Source: Archangium sp. (GTDB taxonomy: Bacteria > Myxococcota > Myxococcia > Myxococcales > Myxococcaceae). Taken from it: 64,000 nucleotides of DNA. The stretch is taken from NCBI GenBank assembly GCA_031367385.1, contig JANLPS010000358.1, positions 1-64,000 on the forward strand. Reading direction: 5' to 3'. The stretch's first letter is position 1; the number at the start of each line of letters is the position of its first letter. Made by a program: the position numbers. Shown in pieces: positions 36,001 through 42,000 of this stretch.

Positions 36001-39000
36001 CCGGCCCGCACACCCTCGTCGCCACCGCTTGGGACGCAGTGGGGCACCGCACCCGATCGGCGACAGTCGCCTTTCGCGCTGAAGATGCGACGGTTTTCGA
36101 CGGTGGCGTGACCGCGTCTCCGACTCCAGCGGGTGGCGTGAAAGGCACCTGTGGGTGCGACGCCAGCGGAGGATCGCTCCTCGTCGGCCTATTGGCCCTG
36201 CTCAGGAGGCGGCCCAGAGCAAAGGGAGACTGATTCAATGCCAACGATTCTCGAGACGAAACAGTCGCGGTCGAGCGAAGCGCTTGCCGTGCTCAAGCAG
36301 TGACTCGCCGGCACCGGGGTTTTCGATGGTTGCCGCCTTCAAAGTGCGCCTAAGTCAGCCCACGCCGCCGCGCACGTCAGTCTTTGGAGCCGCCCTCCCT
36401 CATGAAGAAATCGAAAAAATCAGCCACCGCGCAGTCGGGTGACGGCCTCGCCACGCTGGTCGAACGCGACCTGACCGCCCTCGCCACTTCGGGCACGCTG
36501 CCCATCGGCCACGGCCTCGAACAAGCGGCCGCCGAGCTGGTCACCCTGCTCACCCGCGGGGGCAAGTCGCCGCTGCTGGCCGGAGACCAGGGCGTCGGCA
36601 AGAGCGCCATCGTTCAAGAGGTCGCGCGACGCATCGCGCAGGGCAACGTGCCCGAGGGGCTCAAGGGCGCCCGCGTGCTCGAGCTCACCGCCGCTGGCAT
36701 CTTCGCCCGAACCAACACGCCCAAAGGCGCCGCCGAGCTGTTCGAGGAGCTGCTCGAGACCCTGGGCGCCGTGCCCGGCACGCTGGTCTTCATGCGCGAT
36801 GTTGGCCTGGTCACCGGCAGCTCACTGGTGCCGGTCTTGATTCGCGCGCTCCGCTCGGCCCGCCTGCGCTTCATCTTCGAGAGCGACCTGCGCCGTGGCA
36901 ACGAGCTGCTGCGCAGTGACGAGACGCTCGCTGAGAAGCTGCACCTGGTGGTCGTCAACGAGCCGACCATCGAGCGCGCACGGTGGATTGTCGGCCGCGC
37001 CGCCGAAGACCTGGAGCTCGAAGCCGGGTTGCCCATCGACCCCTCGGCCTGCGACCTGGCCCTGCGGCTCTCGGTGAAGTTCTTGCTCGCCCAGCGGCTG
37101 CCGCGAAAGGCCCTCGAGCTGTTGCGCGAAACCGTCGCCGAGGCCTCGGGCGCCTCGAGAGACCGCGTCACCGGTGAAGACGTGCTCGCCCGCTTCTGCG
37201 CCGCCACCCGCCTGCCCCGCTTCATGGCCGACGACGCCTTGCCGCTCGACTTCGATGAGGTCGCACGCTTCTTCGGCAGCCGCCTGCTGGGCCAGACCGA
37301 CGCGGTTCAGGCGGTGTTGCGCTCGGTCGCGCTGCTCAAGGCCGGCCTCAACAACCCGCGACGGCCGCTGGGTGTGTTTCTCTTCGCGGGGCCCACCGGC
37401 GTCGGCAAGACCCACCTGGCCAAGCTGCTCGCGGAGTACCTGTTCGGCTCGCATGACCGGTTGGTGCGGCTCAACATGGCCGACTACCCCGACTTCGGCG
37501 ATGAGCAGGTGCTCTTCGGCAACCCGTGGGCCCAGGGCGCCGACGGCAAGCGCGGCGAGCTCACCCGGCTGCTCGATTCGCGGGTCTTCACCGTGTTGCT
37601 GCTCGACGAGTTCGAGAAGGCGCACGCCAAGTGCCACGACCGGTTTCTGCAGCTCTTCGACGAAGGGCAGTTCATCAACGCCGCCGGTGAGACGGTGCCG
37701 TGCAACAACACGCTCATCGTCTGCACCTCGAACGTAGGGGCCGAGGTGTACCGCGAGGGCTCGATTGGTTTCGCCGCCAGCCGCACCGACGACGAGCTGC
37801 TCGCCGAGGTCGACCGCCGCATCGCGACCACCTTCAGGCCTGAATTTCTCAATCGTTTCGATGCGATGTGCCACTTTCGCCCGCTGGGCAGGGTCGAGAT
37901 TCGCCGCATCGCGCAGCGCGAGGTGGGCCGGGTGCTCGAGCGAGAAGGCATTCGGGCGCGGCAGCTCGATGTCGAAATCGCTCCCGAGGTGGTCGAGCTG
38001 TTGGTCGAGCGCGGGTACTCGCCGACGCATGGCGCGCGGTACCTGCAACGTGAAATCGAGAAAACCCTCACCGCGGCATTGGCGGTCGAGATTGCGCGGC
38101 AGCCGCTGCCCGCGGGCACTCCGGTGAAGGTGGTGGCGCACAAGGGCGGCGTGCATGCGATTGCCGAGCCCAAGGTACGCAGGGTGCGCGAGGCCACGGC
38201 GCAGGCGCAGCTGCCGAGCGGAGGCGCTCAAGTTCAACGGCGCAAGCTCGACGCGCGCTCGCTGCTGGCCGAGGCAGAGGCGTTGATTGGCCGGGCCGCC
38301 GGAGTCTCATCGGCCACCAAACGCACCGAGCTCGAAGCGCGACGCCGAGAGCTGCTCGCCGCCTCGCAGGCCCCCGGCTTTTGGGACGACGCGGAGCGTG
38401 CGGCGTCGGTCTTGCGCGCCTTTCGAACCGCCGAGGTGCAGCTCGCCGAGCTCGATCGACTGCGCGAGCTGTGCCAGGTGGCGCGGCGGCGAGCACGTGA
38501 AGCGAAGGGCGACATGCAGCTGGCCGCAGCGGTGCGGGCGGTTGAAGAGGCCGCGCGCGAAGTGCAGCTGGCCGAGGCCCGGGTGGCGTCGGGCACGGCG
38601 GGCACCGTCGATGACGCGTGGCTCGACGTCTCGGCCGCCCTCGAAGGAGAAGCGGGCGAAGCGTGGGTGCGCGAGCTGGTCTCGATGTACCTGGGCTGGG
38701 CCGAGCGGCGTGGGTACGAGGCGAAGGTGGTGGCTGAATCAGAGACGCCGCGCAGGGCGGTGCTGCACCTGCATGGGCCTGGCGTGTTCGGGTTTCTCTC
38801 GGGTGAGCGCGGGTTGCACCGGCGCATCGACGATGGCTCGCGGCAGGCGGCCTACGTGAGGTTGTCGAAGCCGTCGAACGCACCGATTGAGTTGCCCGAG
38901 ACGCTCGAGGTGGTCGGGCGCGAAGTCAAGCGGCGCGCCGGGCGGTTCGTCGAGCGGGTGGCGAGTGAGGCACAGGCCCGAGATGAGCGCACGGGCCGCG

Positions 39001-42000
39001 AGCTGCAGCTGTCGGGCGCGGGGTCGGTGACGGAGTTGCGCGCGTTGACTGCGGTGGTGCTCGAGCTGCAGGGTGAAGGCGGGCTCGAGGTGCGGCGGTA
39101 CTTCGTGGGGCGCAGCGCGAGAGTCGAAGACCCGAGAACCGGCGAGGCGACCCCGCGGGTCAAAGACGTGCTGCGAGGCGAAATCGACCTGTTCATCGCC
39201 GGGTGGATTACGCGGCCCCCCGACACGCTTCAGGCATGACCCCGTTCGTCGTGAGCGAAGTCGAAGGACCCCCGCTCACGCTTCCAACAGCTCAACTCGC
39301 GCGCCCCTGGGAGCAGGAACACATTCTGCTGCACCTCGGCGAAGTACCGCGCGTGCAAGCGGCAAAAACTGATCAGACCCCTTGCCGATGTGCCGGTGAA
39401 TCGCCGATCGCGGCACGATCACATCGAGCGCACGCAGCGCCCTCGCCCACGCGTCGACGGGCAGAGAGTTGGGTCGACCAACCTGCCATCGATGTCGAGC
39501 AAGACGAGCATCGCGCTTCTACCCCGGCGGCCAACCCGCTATTCCTCCTCCGCATGCCGACTCCGACCATCGTTCACACACTCGACGTTCAAGACCCGGA
39601 CAACTCGACCTACCCGGGTCAAACCGAGCTGCTCTCGATTGGAGCGCCCTTCGCGCAGCTGATGGGCCTGCACCACTTGGCGGTGCACCACGAGCTGCTG
39701 CCTCCGGGCCGGCGCACCAGCTGCGCGCACGCGCACGAATCAGAAGACGAGTTCGTCTACGTCATCGAGGGCACGCCCGACTTGTTTCTCGACGGAGTGC
39801 TCCACCGGCTCAAGCCCGGCTCGGCGGCCGGGTTTCCCGCCGGCACGGGGCACTCACACACGATGATCAACAACACCACCGAGCCGGTGCGCCTGCTGGT
39901 CGTCGGAGAACCTGCCCGGGTGCGCGCCCGTATTCACTACCCGCTCGACCCAATGCGAAACGAAGCGGCCACCAAGAACAACCGCCACTGGCACGATGCG
40001 CCCGTGCTGCCCATGGGGCCCCACGATGGCCTGCCCGACGCGCTGCGAAAGAAGCCGTGAACGCTCGCGCCAGCCAAGTCCTACATCCTCGCACTTCCTA
40101 CAAAGAGGCCCGCGCCGATATGCCCCCAGGGGGCTGTACGTTCTGCTGCCGCACAGCTTGTTTTGACTCCGGGTGCCGGCGACCGCGAAAGCGATTCGTC
40201 GTCAGCCACCGACGCCGCGTTGGTGCATTCGCGGCGTCGGTGGGCAGTTTTTTTTTGGAAGCGCCCTTTAGAACGGCGCGTCTTCATCGCCCGGAGGCGG
40301 AATCTGCGACATGTCGTGACCCCCGCTCCCACCGCCACCGCCTTGACGCGCAATCTCGGCCTCGATGGCCGCCAGCAACACGCGCTCTTTGTCGTGAAAC
40401 CGGGCCTTGGTCGGGTCTGAGAGCGAGCGGCGCGAGCCATTCGCGTAGAAATCGAGGTCTTGCATCGTGGCGCCCGAAATCGGCATGCCCTTCGAGCGGC
40501 CGTAGGGAGGAAACACCATTCCACCATCTCCGCCGCCGCCGCCGCTGGGCACCGAGCGGAGCCCGGGGCCTCGTGACGCCGCGCTCGCGACAGGCTGCGA
40601 GCCGATGCTGAGCTCTCCCAGCTTCAGGCTGAAGCCCTCGCCGGTTTTGGTGGCCGTGCCGACCCGAACCTCTTCGACCGACCCGTCTTGGCGCTGCACG
40701 CTGACTGTGACTGCGTAGGTTTCGCTCATGGGCTTTCAAAAATCAGTCGCCCCGCGCGAAGTCAATGCCCGATGGAAATCGTCTGCCCGCATTTCGGGCA
40801 TCGGGGCTTGTACTTGCTGACGCTCCCCGCCCACCCGCAGCTCGAGCACTGCACGTCAGCGTGATGCGGGTCGGCCTTCGGAGCCGCCAGCATTCGCCGC
40901 ACGATGTACGCCCCCACCACCAGCGCCACCACGAAGCCGACCTTGGCTCCGTAGTGCGAGAGGAGCTCAGCCATCACTGCACGACGATGTTGAACTCGAC
41001 GCGGCGGTTGTTCTCACGGCCCGCCGGGGTGTCATTCGTATCGGCTGGCTTCTCTTGCCCAAACCCGACCGGCACCAGGCGCTTGTCGTCGACGCCCTTC
41101 TTCACCAGGTAGGCCTTCACCGAGTTGGCCCGGTCTTGGCTGAGCGTCTTGTTGTGCTCGGCGGTGCCCACGCTGTCGGTGTGGCCTTCGACCTGCACCA
41201 GGGCAATCTCCGGGTGCTCGGTCATCACTGACGCGACCTGGTCGAGCAAGCCATTCGACTTCTTCAAGATGGTCGCCTTGTTGGTATCGAAGAAGACCTT
41301 CTCTTTGATGATCAGCTTCTCTTTGGTGATGATCACCAGCTGCTTCTTCGCCGCCGGGCACCCCTGGTTCTCTTTGACGCCGGCCTCTTTGGGGCAGTTG
41401 TCGAGGTAATCGGGCACGCCGTCGCCGTCTTGGTCGGGCCACGGGCAGCCCTTGTTCTCGACCGGGCCGGCCTGGTCGACGCAGCCATCGAGGCGGTCGA
41501 CAATGGTGTCGCCGTCTTGGTCGGTGTCGGGGCAGCCCTTGTTCAAGGCCGGGCCTGCGAGGGTCGGGCACGAGTCATTCGGGTCGATCAACCCGTCTTT
41601 GTCGGTGTCGGGCCATGGGCAGCCCTTGTTGCCAGGAGCGCCCGGCGTGTCGATGCACGCGTCTAATCGGTCGACCACCGAGTCTTGGTCTTTGTCGGTG
41701 TCGGGGCAGCCCTTGTTCTCAGCGGGGCCCTTCATGTTCGGGCACGCATCGAGAAAGTTCGACACGTTGTCTTCATCGATGTCGAGGTCTGGGCAGTCGG
41801 CCAACTCGTACGGCTGCCCCTCGATGCACGGAGGCTTGGTCATGCTCACGTTGGCGAAGGCGATGCCGCCGTAGGCGCGCAGGTACGGGGTCGAGGGCTC
41901 TCCGAAGTAGCCGGGGCCGACCGAGGCGAAGAGCTCGAGGGCACCCACCGGGTAACGAACGCCGATCTGCCCTTCGACACCAGCGCGGCCGCCACCGGCG

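What a model noticed while it worked through the whole genome (the two positions that open the first line are those of the whole stretch)
36402..39239. ClpA/C-type unfoldase fused to a GGQ-less RF2 mimic
g00153 is a 945-aa Hsp100 ATPase (degenerate first Walker B, intact second ring, ClpP-docking IGF loop) fused to a whole release-factor-2-like module that has lost both the catalytic GGQ and the SPF stop-codon loop. The fusion is conserved across Myxococcaceae and suggests a ribosome-directed ClpP unfoldase.
Evidence so far: A profile of the C-terminal 335 aa hits this genome's RF2 at E 7.5e-22 over nearly its whole length and RF1 at 1e-10; GGQ and SPY/SPF align to unrelated or missing residues. 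150 homologues at E<=1e-60; the 120 listed all carry Clp and PCRF domains, including Myxococcus, Corallococcus and Stigmatella proteins. Of 25 aligned, none keeps the SPF loop, 24 have no GGQ string in the module, 22 keep an I/L/M-G-F loop; Walker B of ring 1 reads RD in the 8 rows printed. The three other double-ring Clp ATPases here lack that loop by the same pattern. Model pLDDT 78.
(Added by a program. Inside this text positions count along the whole contig: contig position 1 is position 1 of the stretch shown here. "Call 12" and the like, gene names such as g00115 and contig names such as C1 are that model's own, and its searches are not shown. The text may have been shortened before it was handed on; [...] marks where a part breaks off. 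The agent that wrote the report below was given it as the finding of a first reader that could run no searches.)

Follow-up and report, generated by a model that had tools for sequence, protein, structure and literature searches.

The report
Clp motor with locked release-factor arm
This myxobacterial gene joins a Clp-type ATP-driven motor to a disabled copy of the factor that normally ends protein synthesis; the copy is predicted to stay folded shut and likely serves to dock the motor, and probably its partner protease, on stalled ribosomes, a job no bacterial protease is known to do.

Summary
The fusion is real: a 945-aa Clp ATPase (no N-domain; ring 1 degenerate; ring 2 intact; IGF loop) ends in an RF2-derived module. 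GGQ and SPF are absent in 113 of 113 close and 62 of 62 distant homologues. New here: helix 7/switch loop is about 22 residues short and the model fits compact RF2 best, so the arm likely cannot reach the peptidyl-transferase centre. The family is single-copy in most Myxococcaceae and reaches Planctomycetota, Chloroflexota and Gemmatimonadota. The likely M. xanthus orthologue is MXAN_1484, directly downstream of a tRNA array plus HNH gene that chloramphenicol induces strongly; its own induction is not shown, it appears to have its own promoter, and the window's own clade lacks this link. Two corrections: two of the three other Clp ATPases here do carry the docking loop, and the canonical GYVG pore loop is missing, so 'unfoldase' is uncertain. 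Best reading: a ribosome-docking, ClpP-coupled quality-control motor (about 45%); ribosome binding is untested. No paper describing it was found. The scan noted the related three-gene form before, on other DNA.

The parts
36402..39239 (+). Gene for the 945-aa Clp-RF2* fusion; ATG start, no Clp_N domain, no M-domain
   Evidence: GC at codon positions 0.74/0.48/0.86
36444..37226 (+). AAA+ ring 1 (aa 15-275): Walker A kept (36582-36605), Walker B degenerate R132-D133 (36795-36800), pore tyrosine lost
   Evidence: RD in 110 of 113; aromatic pore motif 0 of 113
37227..38171 (+). AAA+ ring 2 (aa 276-590): Walker A (37389-37412), Walker B DE (37593-37610), sensor 1, Arg finger and sensor 2 intact
   Evidence: most conserved region (mean 0.85)
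37515..37529 (+). Ring-2 pore-loop region, FGNPW in place of GAPPGYVG; W376 is a candidate substitute gripping residue (inferred)
   Evidence: W in 113 of 113; GYVG 0 of 62 distant members
37764..37772 (+). I-G-F, aligned with the ClpP-docking loop of ClpA/ClpC
   Evidence: 112 of 113 close, 55 of 62 distant; present in this genome's ClpA and ClpC-like protein, absent from ClpB
38172..38252 (+). Linker (aa 591-617) with a predicted beta-hairpin
   Evidence: model; conservation 0.59
38253..38600 (+). RF2-like domain 1, three-helix bundle with the FWD motif
   Evidence: in RF2 this domain contacts the L11 stalk (PMC5378476)
38601..38870 (+). RF2-like domain 2: E-x-G-x-H kept; helix-5 GGT tip, SPF loop and RHTSF strand replaced or shortened
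   Evidence: ExGxH 113 of 113; GGT 1 of 113; SPF 0 of 113
38871..39074 (+). Remodelled domain 3: GGQ loop replaced (..KRRAGRF..), helix 7 cut to about 14 residues, switch loop and its Trp/Phe lost
   Evidence: least conserved part (0.53); deleted altogether in several distant members
39075..39215 (+). RF2-like domain 4 (RRY..RVEDPRTG..RVKDVLRG), the most conserved part of the module and more basic than RF2
   Evidence: conservation 0.81; net +2 to +3 versus -2 to -3 for RF2 of the same genome in 6 of 6 genomes

Best explanation
The gene encodes a Clp-type double-ring ATPase with a degenerate first ring, an intact second ring and an IGF loop, fused to an RF2-derived arm that lacks GGQ and SPF; the arm is predicted to be held in the compact shape and likely docks the presumed hexamer on stalled ribosomes, where the motor, probably coupled to ClpP, would pull on and degrade a nearby protein. 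Shown here: the domains, the motif losses, the shortened helix 7/switch loop, the conservation and the range. Inferred: (1) hexamer with ring 1 as a nucleotide-binding scaffold and ring 2 as the only motor; (2) ClpP docking through IGF; (3) the arm uses domain 1 (L11 stalk side) and the basic domain 2/4 core to sit in or beside the A site without reading a codon or cutting peptidyl-tRNA; (4) with no N-domain, the arm replaces it as the targeting device, and W376 may replace the pore tyrosine; (5) the substrate is a factor or protein trapped near the A site or a tagged nascent chain; (6) it matters most under translational stress.
For: Architecture and motifs. All Foldseek top hits of the module model are release factors, and compact forms fit best (free RF2 1gqe TM 0.52, rmsd 8; pre-accommodated 5mdw and 6ost TM 0.43-0.44) against extended forms (TM 0.30-0.36, rmsd 15-19); compact RF2 does bind the A site with domain 1 on the L11 stalk (PMC5378476). 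Helix 7/switch is short in close and distant members alike (28 and 34.5 vs 50). The full RF scaffold, domain 1 included, has been kept across deeply diverged lineages, with one side-of-branch grouping against RF1/RF2 (100/99), and domain 4 is basic beyond the same-genome RF2. Context: 27 of 31 loci L080-L110 have tRNA genes upstream on the same strand (20 with 6 or more) and 29 of 31 an HNH gene, the layout of the Anabaena array induced by ribosome-targeting antibiotics (PMC8421152). In M. xanthus that HNH (MXAN_1486) rose log2 8.09 and the array's tRNA-Tyr (MXAN_1491) log2 5.28 with chloramphenicol (PMC6617876; gene order). The separate paralogous operon MXAN_4823-4825 rose log2 2.6-3.6, and its first gene type carries the same kind of module. 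ClpP is encoded in the genome.
Against: No binding, ATPase or proteolysis data exist. All known codon-reading and activating elements of RF2 are gone (GGT tip, SPF, RHTSF, switch-loop aromatic), and RF2 needs a stop codon or ArfA as platform for stable binding (PMC12646239), so affinity must come from something new. GYVG is absent in 62 of 62 distant members, six have lost the loop altogether, and only 5 of 41 in the larger subclade keep an aromatic there; pore-loop tyrosines matter for threading (PMC5540906). After a same-genome control the former GGQ loop and the whole module are not more basic than RF2. The tRNA/HNH link is one inherited arrangement, absent from 38 of 38 loci of the window's own clade; such arrays move by horizontal transfer; a conserved -10-like TAGAGT 25-30 bases upstream in 25 of 28 array-clade loci suggests a separate promoter; MXAN_1484 is transcribed evenly (RPKM 30-73) and is not among the Clp genes named as induced. 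The arm hangs from the ClpP-side C-terminus, opposite the usual substrate entry (own knowledge). The compact model may partly reflect AlphaFold's preference for free RF2.
Confidence: 0.45

Rival explanations
1. It docks on ribosomes through the arm but does not thread substrates: ring-2 ATP hydrolysis drives a conformational remodelling (subunit splitting, eviction of a bound factor), or the IGF loops merely open ClpP next to the ribosome so that unfolded nascent chains diffuse in.
For: GYVG 0 of 62, loop deleted in six members, while ring-2 catalytic motifs (62 of 62) and the docking loop (55 of 62) are kept; 39 of 41 members of the larger subclade keep an aromatic pore motif only in the catalytically degenerate ring 1.
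Against: In the Myxococcaceae clade W376 is invariant (113 of 113), as expected of a gripping residue; no splitting data.
Confidence: 0.17
2. The arm is a structural or regulatory appendage (an autoinhibitory coiled arm like the ClpB/ClpC M-domain, or an oligomerisation aid) whose RF2 ancestry is incidental; the protein is an adaptor-dependent ClpP partner with no role at the ribosome.
For: All functional RF2 motifs lost; the invariant residues (ExGxH, RxY, DxRTG) may be core-structural; lineages diverge fast (end branches about 0.7-1.3); neighbourhood unconserved in the window's clade.
Against: Three to four domains of an awkward RNA-contacting fold kept across phyla; basic, highly conserved domain 4; two separate loci tied to chloramphenicol stress.
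Confidence: 0.15
3. The arm is a decoy or adaptor for proteins that recognise RF2 (RF3, PrmC, ArfA-like rescue factors, or foreign translation inhibitors), which the motor then unfolds or feeds to ClpP.
For: Compact RF shape is also the PrmC-bound form (2b3t TM 0.42); ArfA binds the domain-2 sheet; myxobacteria meet many ribosome-targeting toxins (own knowledge).
Against: The GGQ loop read by PrmC and the switch-loop aromatic bound by ArfA are the parts lost; single-copy vertical inheritance and no specific defence-family match (only generic AAA hits).
Confidence: 0.13
4. The arm is an RNA-binding adaptor, as plant PrfB3 is, and targets the motor to tRNA- or mRNA-protein complexes outside the ribosome.
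For: PrfB3 lost SPF and GGQ and binds an mRNA 3' UTR (PMC5897788); basic domain 4; adjacency to tRNA arrays, and to RNase J in 10 loci.
Against: Domain 1, a ribosome-stalk contact, is kept in all full-length members; PrfB3 is a stand-alone plastid protein.
Confidence: 0.1

Closest known systems
ClpA / ClpC (class I Hsp100 partners of ClpP)
   Same: Two AAA+ modules, D2-small domain, intact ring-2 catalytic motifs, IGF-type loop; best Foldseek hits are ClpC/ClpA/ClpB structures.
   Different: No Clp_N domain, degenerate ring-1 Walker B, no GYVG, C-terminal RF2 module; all NCBIfam Clp scores far below cut-off (266 vs 993 for ClpA); ring-2 sequences group apart from canonical ClpA/B/C (support 100, FastTree).
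Bacterial release factor RF2 (PrfB)
   Same: Four-domain fold and order; ExGxH, RxY, DxRTG and FWD motifs.
   Different: No GGQ, SPF or GGT tip; helix 7/switch about 22 residues short; fused to a motor; the genome keeps intact RF1, RF2 and an ArfB-like gene.
Plant PrfB3
   Same: RF2 derivative without SPF and GGQ, repurposed (PMC5897788).
   Different: Stand-alone plastid mRNA-stabilising protein, no ATPase.
PrfH-RtcB
   Same: RF paralogue used on damaged or stalled ribosomes (PMC6514570); structural hits Z 10.4-10.7.
   Different: PrfH lacks domain 1 and keeps the catalytic Gln; here domain 1 is kept and Gln lost; no RtcB cluster among the neighbour families listed.
Eukaryotic Vms1-Cdc48 and Dom34/Pelota (functional analogues)
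   Same: A release-factor-like protein coupled to an AAA+ motor in ribosome quality control; a catalytically dead RF paralogue used for rescue (PMC6514570).
   Different: Unrelated fold (aeRF1), separate polypeptides; analogy only.
M. xanthus MXAN_4823-4825 Clp trio (uncharacterised)
   Same: Degenerate ring 1, intact ring 2, xGF loop, no GYVG; first gene ends in an RF2-derived module with the same SPF-loop shortening.
   Different: Three-gene operon, extra N-terminal domains, domain 3 deleted altogether; not found in this genome.

Membership tests
ClpA/ClpC-type Hsp100 | Two tandem AAA+ modules plus D2-small domain | tested here: met
ClpA/ClpC-type Hsp100 | N-terminal Clp_N domain | tested here: not met
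   ring 1 starts at about aa 15; no PF02861; lengths 925-950 in 113 homologues
ClpA/ClpC-type Hsp100 | Ring-1 Walker B hhhhDE and pore tyrosine | tested here: not met
   RD in 110 of 113, aromatic pore motif 0 of 113; DE lost in 61 of 62 distant members
ClpA/ClpC-type Hsp100 | Ring-2 Walker A/B, sensor 1, Arg finger, sensor 2 | tested here: met
ClpA/ClpC-type Hsp100 | Ring-2 GYVG pore loop | tested here: not met
   FGNPW here; 0 of 62 distant members; present in the genome's three other Clp ATPases
ClpA/ClpC-type Hsp100 | IGF/L loop for ClpP docking (sequence) | tested here: met
   112 of 113 and 55 of 62; controls ClpA +, ClpC-like +, ClpB -
ClpA/ClpC-type Hsp100 | Hexamer, ATPase activity, physical ClpP binding, threading | not testable with these tools
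   needs biochemistry; the complex predictor was not available
ClpA/ClpC-type Hsp100 | NCBIfam equivalog cut-offs (ClpA, ClpB, ClpV, ClpG, ClpK) | tested here: not met
   185-282 bits versus 885-1900
Class I release factor RF2 | Domains 1-4 in RF fold | tested here: met
   (Z 13.6-14.4 to RF1/RF2)
Class I release factor RF2 | GGQ catalytic motif | tested here: not met
   0 of 113, 0 of 62; controls 11 of 11
Class I release factor RF2 | SPF loop and helix-5 GGT tip | tested here: not met
   SPF 0/0/11, GGT 1/0/11
Class I release factor RF2 | Full helix 7 and switch loop allowing extension to the PTC | tested here: not met
   median 28 and 34.5 versus 50 residues
Class I release factor RF2 | Binds the ribosomal A site | not testable with these tools
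   no RNA-complex prediction or assay available
PrfH | Domain 1 absent, GGQ kept, rtcB neighbour | tested here: not met
PrfB3-like RNA-binding RF2 derivative | SPF and GGQ both lost | tested here: met
   shared loss, not shown to be shared ancestry
PrfB3-like RNA-binding RF2 derivative | Specific mRNA binding and protection | not testable with these tools
   needs CLIP or gel shifts

The most novel reading that the evidence does not exclude
A multi-phylum family of bacterial AAA+ machines carries its own tRNA-sized A-site probe: a release factor frozen in the closed state senses stalled or damaged 70S ribosomes regardless of codon, and the attached Clp ring, with ClpP, extracts and destroys the trapped factor or nascent chain or splits the ribosome. 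It would be the bacterial counterpart of the eukaryotic Cdc48/Vms1 step, part of a translational-stress regulon with spare tRNA arrays.
Probability: 0.4. Interest if true: 0.92.

Novelty: new variant of a known kind. Interest (0 to 1): 0.77.

Why it matters
Bacteria have several ways to release stalled ribosomes, but to my knowledge no ATP-driven unfoldase or protease is known to be aimed at the ribosome by a built-in docking module. If the arm docks as inferred, this family adds a motor-driven branch to bacterial ribosome quality control and a second case, after plant PrfB3, of a release factor recycled as a non-catalytic targeting part. It is directly testable in a genetic model organism: the likely orthologue MXAN_1484 is expressed, unstudied in the papers searched, and sits beside a chloramphenicol-induced tRNA array. 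Even if the ribosome link fails, it is an undescribed Clp clade with a degenerate first ring and no GYVG loop, mis-named ClpA/ClpB/ClpC in annotations.

Tried and rejected
1) 'The module became basic to bind RNA': seen against mixed RF2 controls (net -4 vs -18) but largely a composition effect; against RF2 of the same six genomes only domain 4 stays more basic. 2) Conserved operon: none across all 80 loci; neighbours change by lineage. 3) Defence system: PADLOC gave only generic AAA matches. 4) Stand-alone Myxococcaceae invention: rejected by 90 of 149 newly listed representatives carrying ring 2 plus the module. 5) Long open frames around some profile hits (L170, L171, L172, L174) are ordinary RF2 genes without Clp rings. 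6) A module on trio genes 2 and 3 of L137: not detected (E 0.49 and 0.23). 7) Sigma-70 promoter scan of the window: none. 8) RNA runs: no RNA holder listed. 9) The complex predictor (ClpP plus ring 2) was not available, so docking was not modelled. 10) Neighbourhoods of non-myxobacterial members were not obtained; the distant alignment was too divergent for the locus scan. 11) Literature: no paper for release factor+ClpA+PCRF+fused; none for MXAN_1484 identifiers; none of the 20 listed papers held RF2-like, PCRF-domain or release-factor-like-domain terms; the release-factor survey PMC6514570 has no 'Clp' in its main text (its supplements not read); the 2016 RNA-repair survey was not held. Subscription papers are not searched. 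12) ESM Atlas look-alike clusters in Planctomycetota, Bacteroidota and Pseudomonadota were not checked for the module and are leads only. 13) An RqcH-like NFACT-R hit in this genome is below cut-off (E 1.3e-5); not followed.

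
Full report
OBSERVATION. The window encodes a 945-aa protein at 36402-39239(+). Pfam finds AAA_2 (321-488), ClpB_D2-small (495-577) and PCRF (645-807, E 1.2e-15) and no Clp_N or RF-1 (GGQ) domain. NCBIfam Clp and prfB models all score far below their cut-offs. The C-terminal 346 residues match only release factors in the PDB sequences (35 hits up to E 1, best RF2 at 2e-15). A profile from 113 near-full-length homologues (900 aa or more, out of 121 proteins held) aligns with this genome's RF2 over nearly its whole length (E 5.9e-23; RF1 2.8e-10). 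The genome keeps intact RF1, RF2 and an ArfB-like ORF and one ClpP in a tig-clpP-clpX cluster. This makes the loop a well-controlled marker but removes any uniqueness.

THE MOTOR. Ring 1 starts at about residue 15, with no N-domain and no M-domain. Walker A is kept, Walker B reads RD in 110 of 113, and no aromatic pore motif remains (0 of 113). Ring 2 keeps Walker A, Walker B, sensor 1, Arg finger and sensor 2 and I/L/M/V-G-F (112 of 113). The GYVG pore loop present in the genome's three other Clp ATPases is replaced by FGxxW, with W376 invariant. A review (PMC5540906, passages) states that the IGF/L loop is needed for ClpP binding and that pore-loop tyrosines are important for substrate processing. 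So ClpP docking is plausible, threading less sure.

THE ARM. In register with RF2, GGQ is found in 0 of 113 close and 0 of 62 distant members, SPF in 0 and 0, the helix-5 GGT tip in 1 and 0, against 11 of 11 RF2 controls for each; ExGxH, RxY and DxRTG are kept. The SPF loop is about 6 residues shorter, and helix 7 plus switch loop has median length 28 (close) and 34.5 (distant) against 50. In RF2 this helix and the switch-loop Trp let domain 3 swing about 70 A into the peptidyl-transferase centre; compact RF2 binds the A site with domain 1 on the L11 stalk (PMC5378476, passages). The module model (pLDDT 71.6, low over domain 4; the same region scores mostly 75-95 in the full-length model, mean 86.9) fits compact release factors best: 1gqe TM 0.52, 1rq0 0.46, pre-accommodated 5mdw and 6ost 0.43-0.44, extended forms 0.30-0.36; the wide structural search also ranks RF1, RF2 and PrfH first (Z 10.4-14.4). 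I infer that the arm cannot open; a modelling bias towards free RF2 is possible. Domain 4 is the most conserved part (0.81, ring 2 0.85, domain 3 0.53) and is net +2 to +3 against -2 to -3 for RF2 of the same genome in 6 of 6 genomes; the former GGQ loop and the module overall are not more basic in that control.

RANGE. At E 1e-18 or better the module occurs once in 53 of 63 genomes of the window's family, in 1 of 1 of a sister family and in none of the other 136 phylum genomes; with a broader profile I count 103 of 122 family genomes at E 1e-70 or better, misses being mostly smaller genomes. Named records place the family in Myxococcaceae. An exhaustive profile search gave 2304 hits; of 149 newly listed, 90 carry ring 2 plus the module. 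In the 62 of 880 aa or more, ring-1 DE is lost in 61, ring-2 DE kept in 62, the docking loop in 55, GYVG in 0. Of 20 clusters looked up, three carry taxon names: Gemmatimonadota, Pirellulales, Chloroflexota. Some members add N-terminal HEAT or TPR repeats; some have deleted domain 3. One subclade of 21, sister to the Myxococcaceae form, has lost the ring-1 pore motif (kept in 1) and keeps a ring-2 aromatic in 9; the other 41 keep the ring-1 motif (39) and rarely a ring-2 aromatic (5). On a careful tree, 35 fused modules (5 chosen, 30 drawn at random from 65 that passed a length filter) form one side of a branch against 22 RF1/RF2 (100/99); long branches could contribute, and RF2 rather than RF1 ancestry rests on profile scores, not on the tree. 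Ring-2 sequences of fusions also stand apart from canonical ClpA/B/C (FastTree 100).

A PARALOGOUS TRIO. A weak PCRF hit in G142 led to an operon of three Clp genes (1136, 1127, 768 aa). The first ends in an RF module with the same SPF-loop shortening and no domain 3 (hhalign 88%; E 1.3e-14); 30 homologues include a 1149-aa Myxococcus protein, the length of MXAN_4823 (PMC11423568, passages and supplement part 1). The match to MXAN_4823-4825 rests on lengths and operon form. That operon is induced by chloramphenicol, log2 1.5-2.2 in adapted and 2.6-3.6 in arrested cells (PMC6617876, passages). It is not found in the window's genome. Eight earlier scan notes describe this trio type on other DNA; I read them after finding it, and they are not independent support.

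CONTEXT. In the window the gene lies between a secreted-type metalloprotease/Ig gene and a cupin gene, and its clade shows no conserved neighbours, with 0 of 38 loci having upstream tRNA or the HNH gene. In the clade of cultured genera (L080-L110), 27 of 31 loci have same-strand tRNA genes upstream (20 with 6 or more, up to 27) and 29 of 31 an HNH endonuclease; in six loci the last tRNA ends 63-165 bases before the start. In Anabaena a long tRNA array and a linked HNH gene are silent until ribosome-targeting antibiotics induce them (PMC8421152, passages). In M. xanthus DK1622, MXAN_1484 is 940 aa, reverse strand, next to a polysaccharide deacetylase, as in locus L138, so it is the likely orthologue. 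Upstream on the same strand lie MXAN_1485, the HNH gene and six tRNA genes with very low read counts (PMC6791715, supplement rows only). With chloramphenicol the HNH gene MXAN_1486 rose log2 8.09 and tRNA-Tyr MXAN_1491 log2 5.28. Against over-reading: this is one inherited arrangement, such arrays spread horizontally, a conserved TAGAGT 25-30 bases upstream of the start in 25 of 28 loci points to a separate promoter, MXAN_1484 is expressed evenly at RPKM 30-73 in growth and development, near RF3 (62-112) and below ClpA (89-203), and it is not named among induced genes; the full expression tables were not among the supplements held and could settle this.

MECHANISM. I commit to a ribosome-docking, ClpP-coupled quality-control motor (0.45): ring 1 as scaffold, ring 2 as motor, IGF to ClpP, and the closed arm as a codon-blind probe for stalled ribosomes in place of the missing N-domain. 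Only the anatomy is shown; hexamer, docking, binding and substrate are inferred. RF2 alone needs a stop codon or ArfA for stable binding (PMC12646239, passages), so the arm would need new affinity, from the basic domain 4 or a partner. Rivals: a non-threading remodeller or ClpP gate-opener on ribosomes (0.17), a structural arm unrelated to translation (0.15), a decoy for RF2 partners (0.13), a PrfB3-like RNA adaptor (0.10; PMC5897788, passages). Some ribosome-directed role thus totals about 0.6.

NOVELTY. It fails membership of ClpA/ClpC (no N-domain, degenerate ring 1, no GYVG) and of RF2 or PrfH (no GGQ, SPF or switch), while working most like a ClpP-partner ATPase with a non-catalytic RF arm. 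The architecture is visible in automatic annotation ('ClpA/protein subunit release factor B'), but searches found no description, and the release-factor survey PMC6514570 (passages and sections 2.3-2.5) does not mention Clp fusions in its main text. Subscription papers and that survey's supplements were not seen. Verdict: new variant of a known kind, interest 0.77.

Noticed in passing
L080-L110, upstream of the match (e.g. L091:965-4162): Accessory arrays of up to 27 tRNA genes with an embedded HNH endonuclease in Archangium, Hyalangium, Myxococcus, Pyxidicoccus; eroded to 1-2 tRNAs in Corallococcus. Resembles the stress-induced cyanobacterial L-array; the M. xanthus copy is chloramphenicol-induced.
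   Followed up: partly
L137:6080-15186 (-): Operon of three Clp-like ATPases, all with degenerate ring-1 Walker B and no GYVG; first gene has a domain-3-less RF2 module and a short N-terminal domain that looks HicB-like by eye (untested).
   Followed up: partly
P0238, P0269, P0293 (HEAT); P0259, P0261 (TPR); P0257 (C-terminal beta-helix): Distant fusion members carry extra repeat domains in place of Clp_N, possibly substrate or partner receptors.
   Followed up: partly
L169:4588-19884 (-): In another Myxococcota family the fusion lies in a chaperone-rich stretch: Hsp70, DnaJ-TPR protein, another AAA_2 ATPase, a canonical ClpC and BamA. Single case.
   Followed up: no
window 36332-36401 and L032-L078 upstream regions: The window's clade shares an upstream element (..GTCAG..C/ACGTC.. 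before the ribosome-binding site) different from the TAGAGT motif of the array clade; possibly an alternative-sigma promoter.
   Followed up: no
G000 contig C4:1512-2395 and C525:2474-5222: The window's own genome has an array of about 10 tRNA genes at a contig end and two HNH genes related to the array-linked one on another contig; neither is linked to the fusion gene in this assembly.
   Followed up: no
L081:7154-9309 and 9 other loci: RNase J, a DUF520 (YajQ-type) gene and a RimO/MiaB-type radical SAM gene follow the fusion gene on the same strand in one lineage.
   Followed up: no
window 32511-36233 (+), 39203-40060 (+), 30611-32146 (+): Neighbours: a 1240-aa metalloprotease-like protein with Ig/CARDB domains, a cupin protein whose listed start overlaps the fusion's end (true start probably later), and a PilT-like ATPase.
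   Followed up: no
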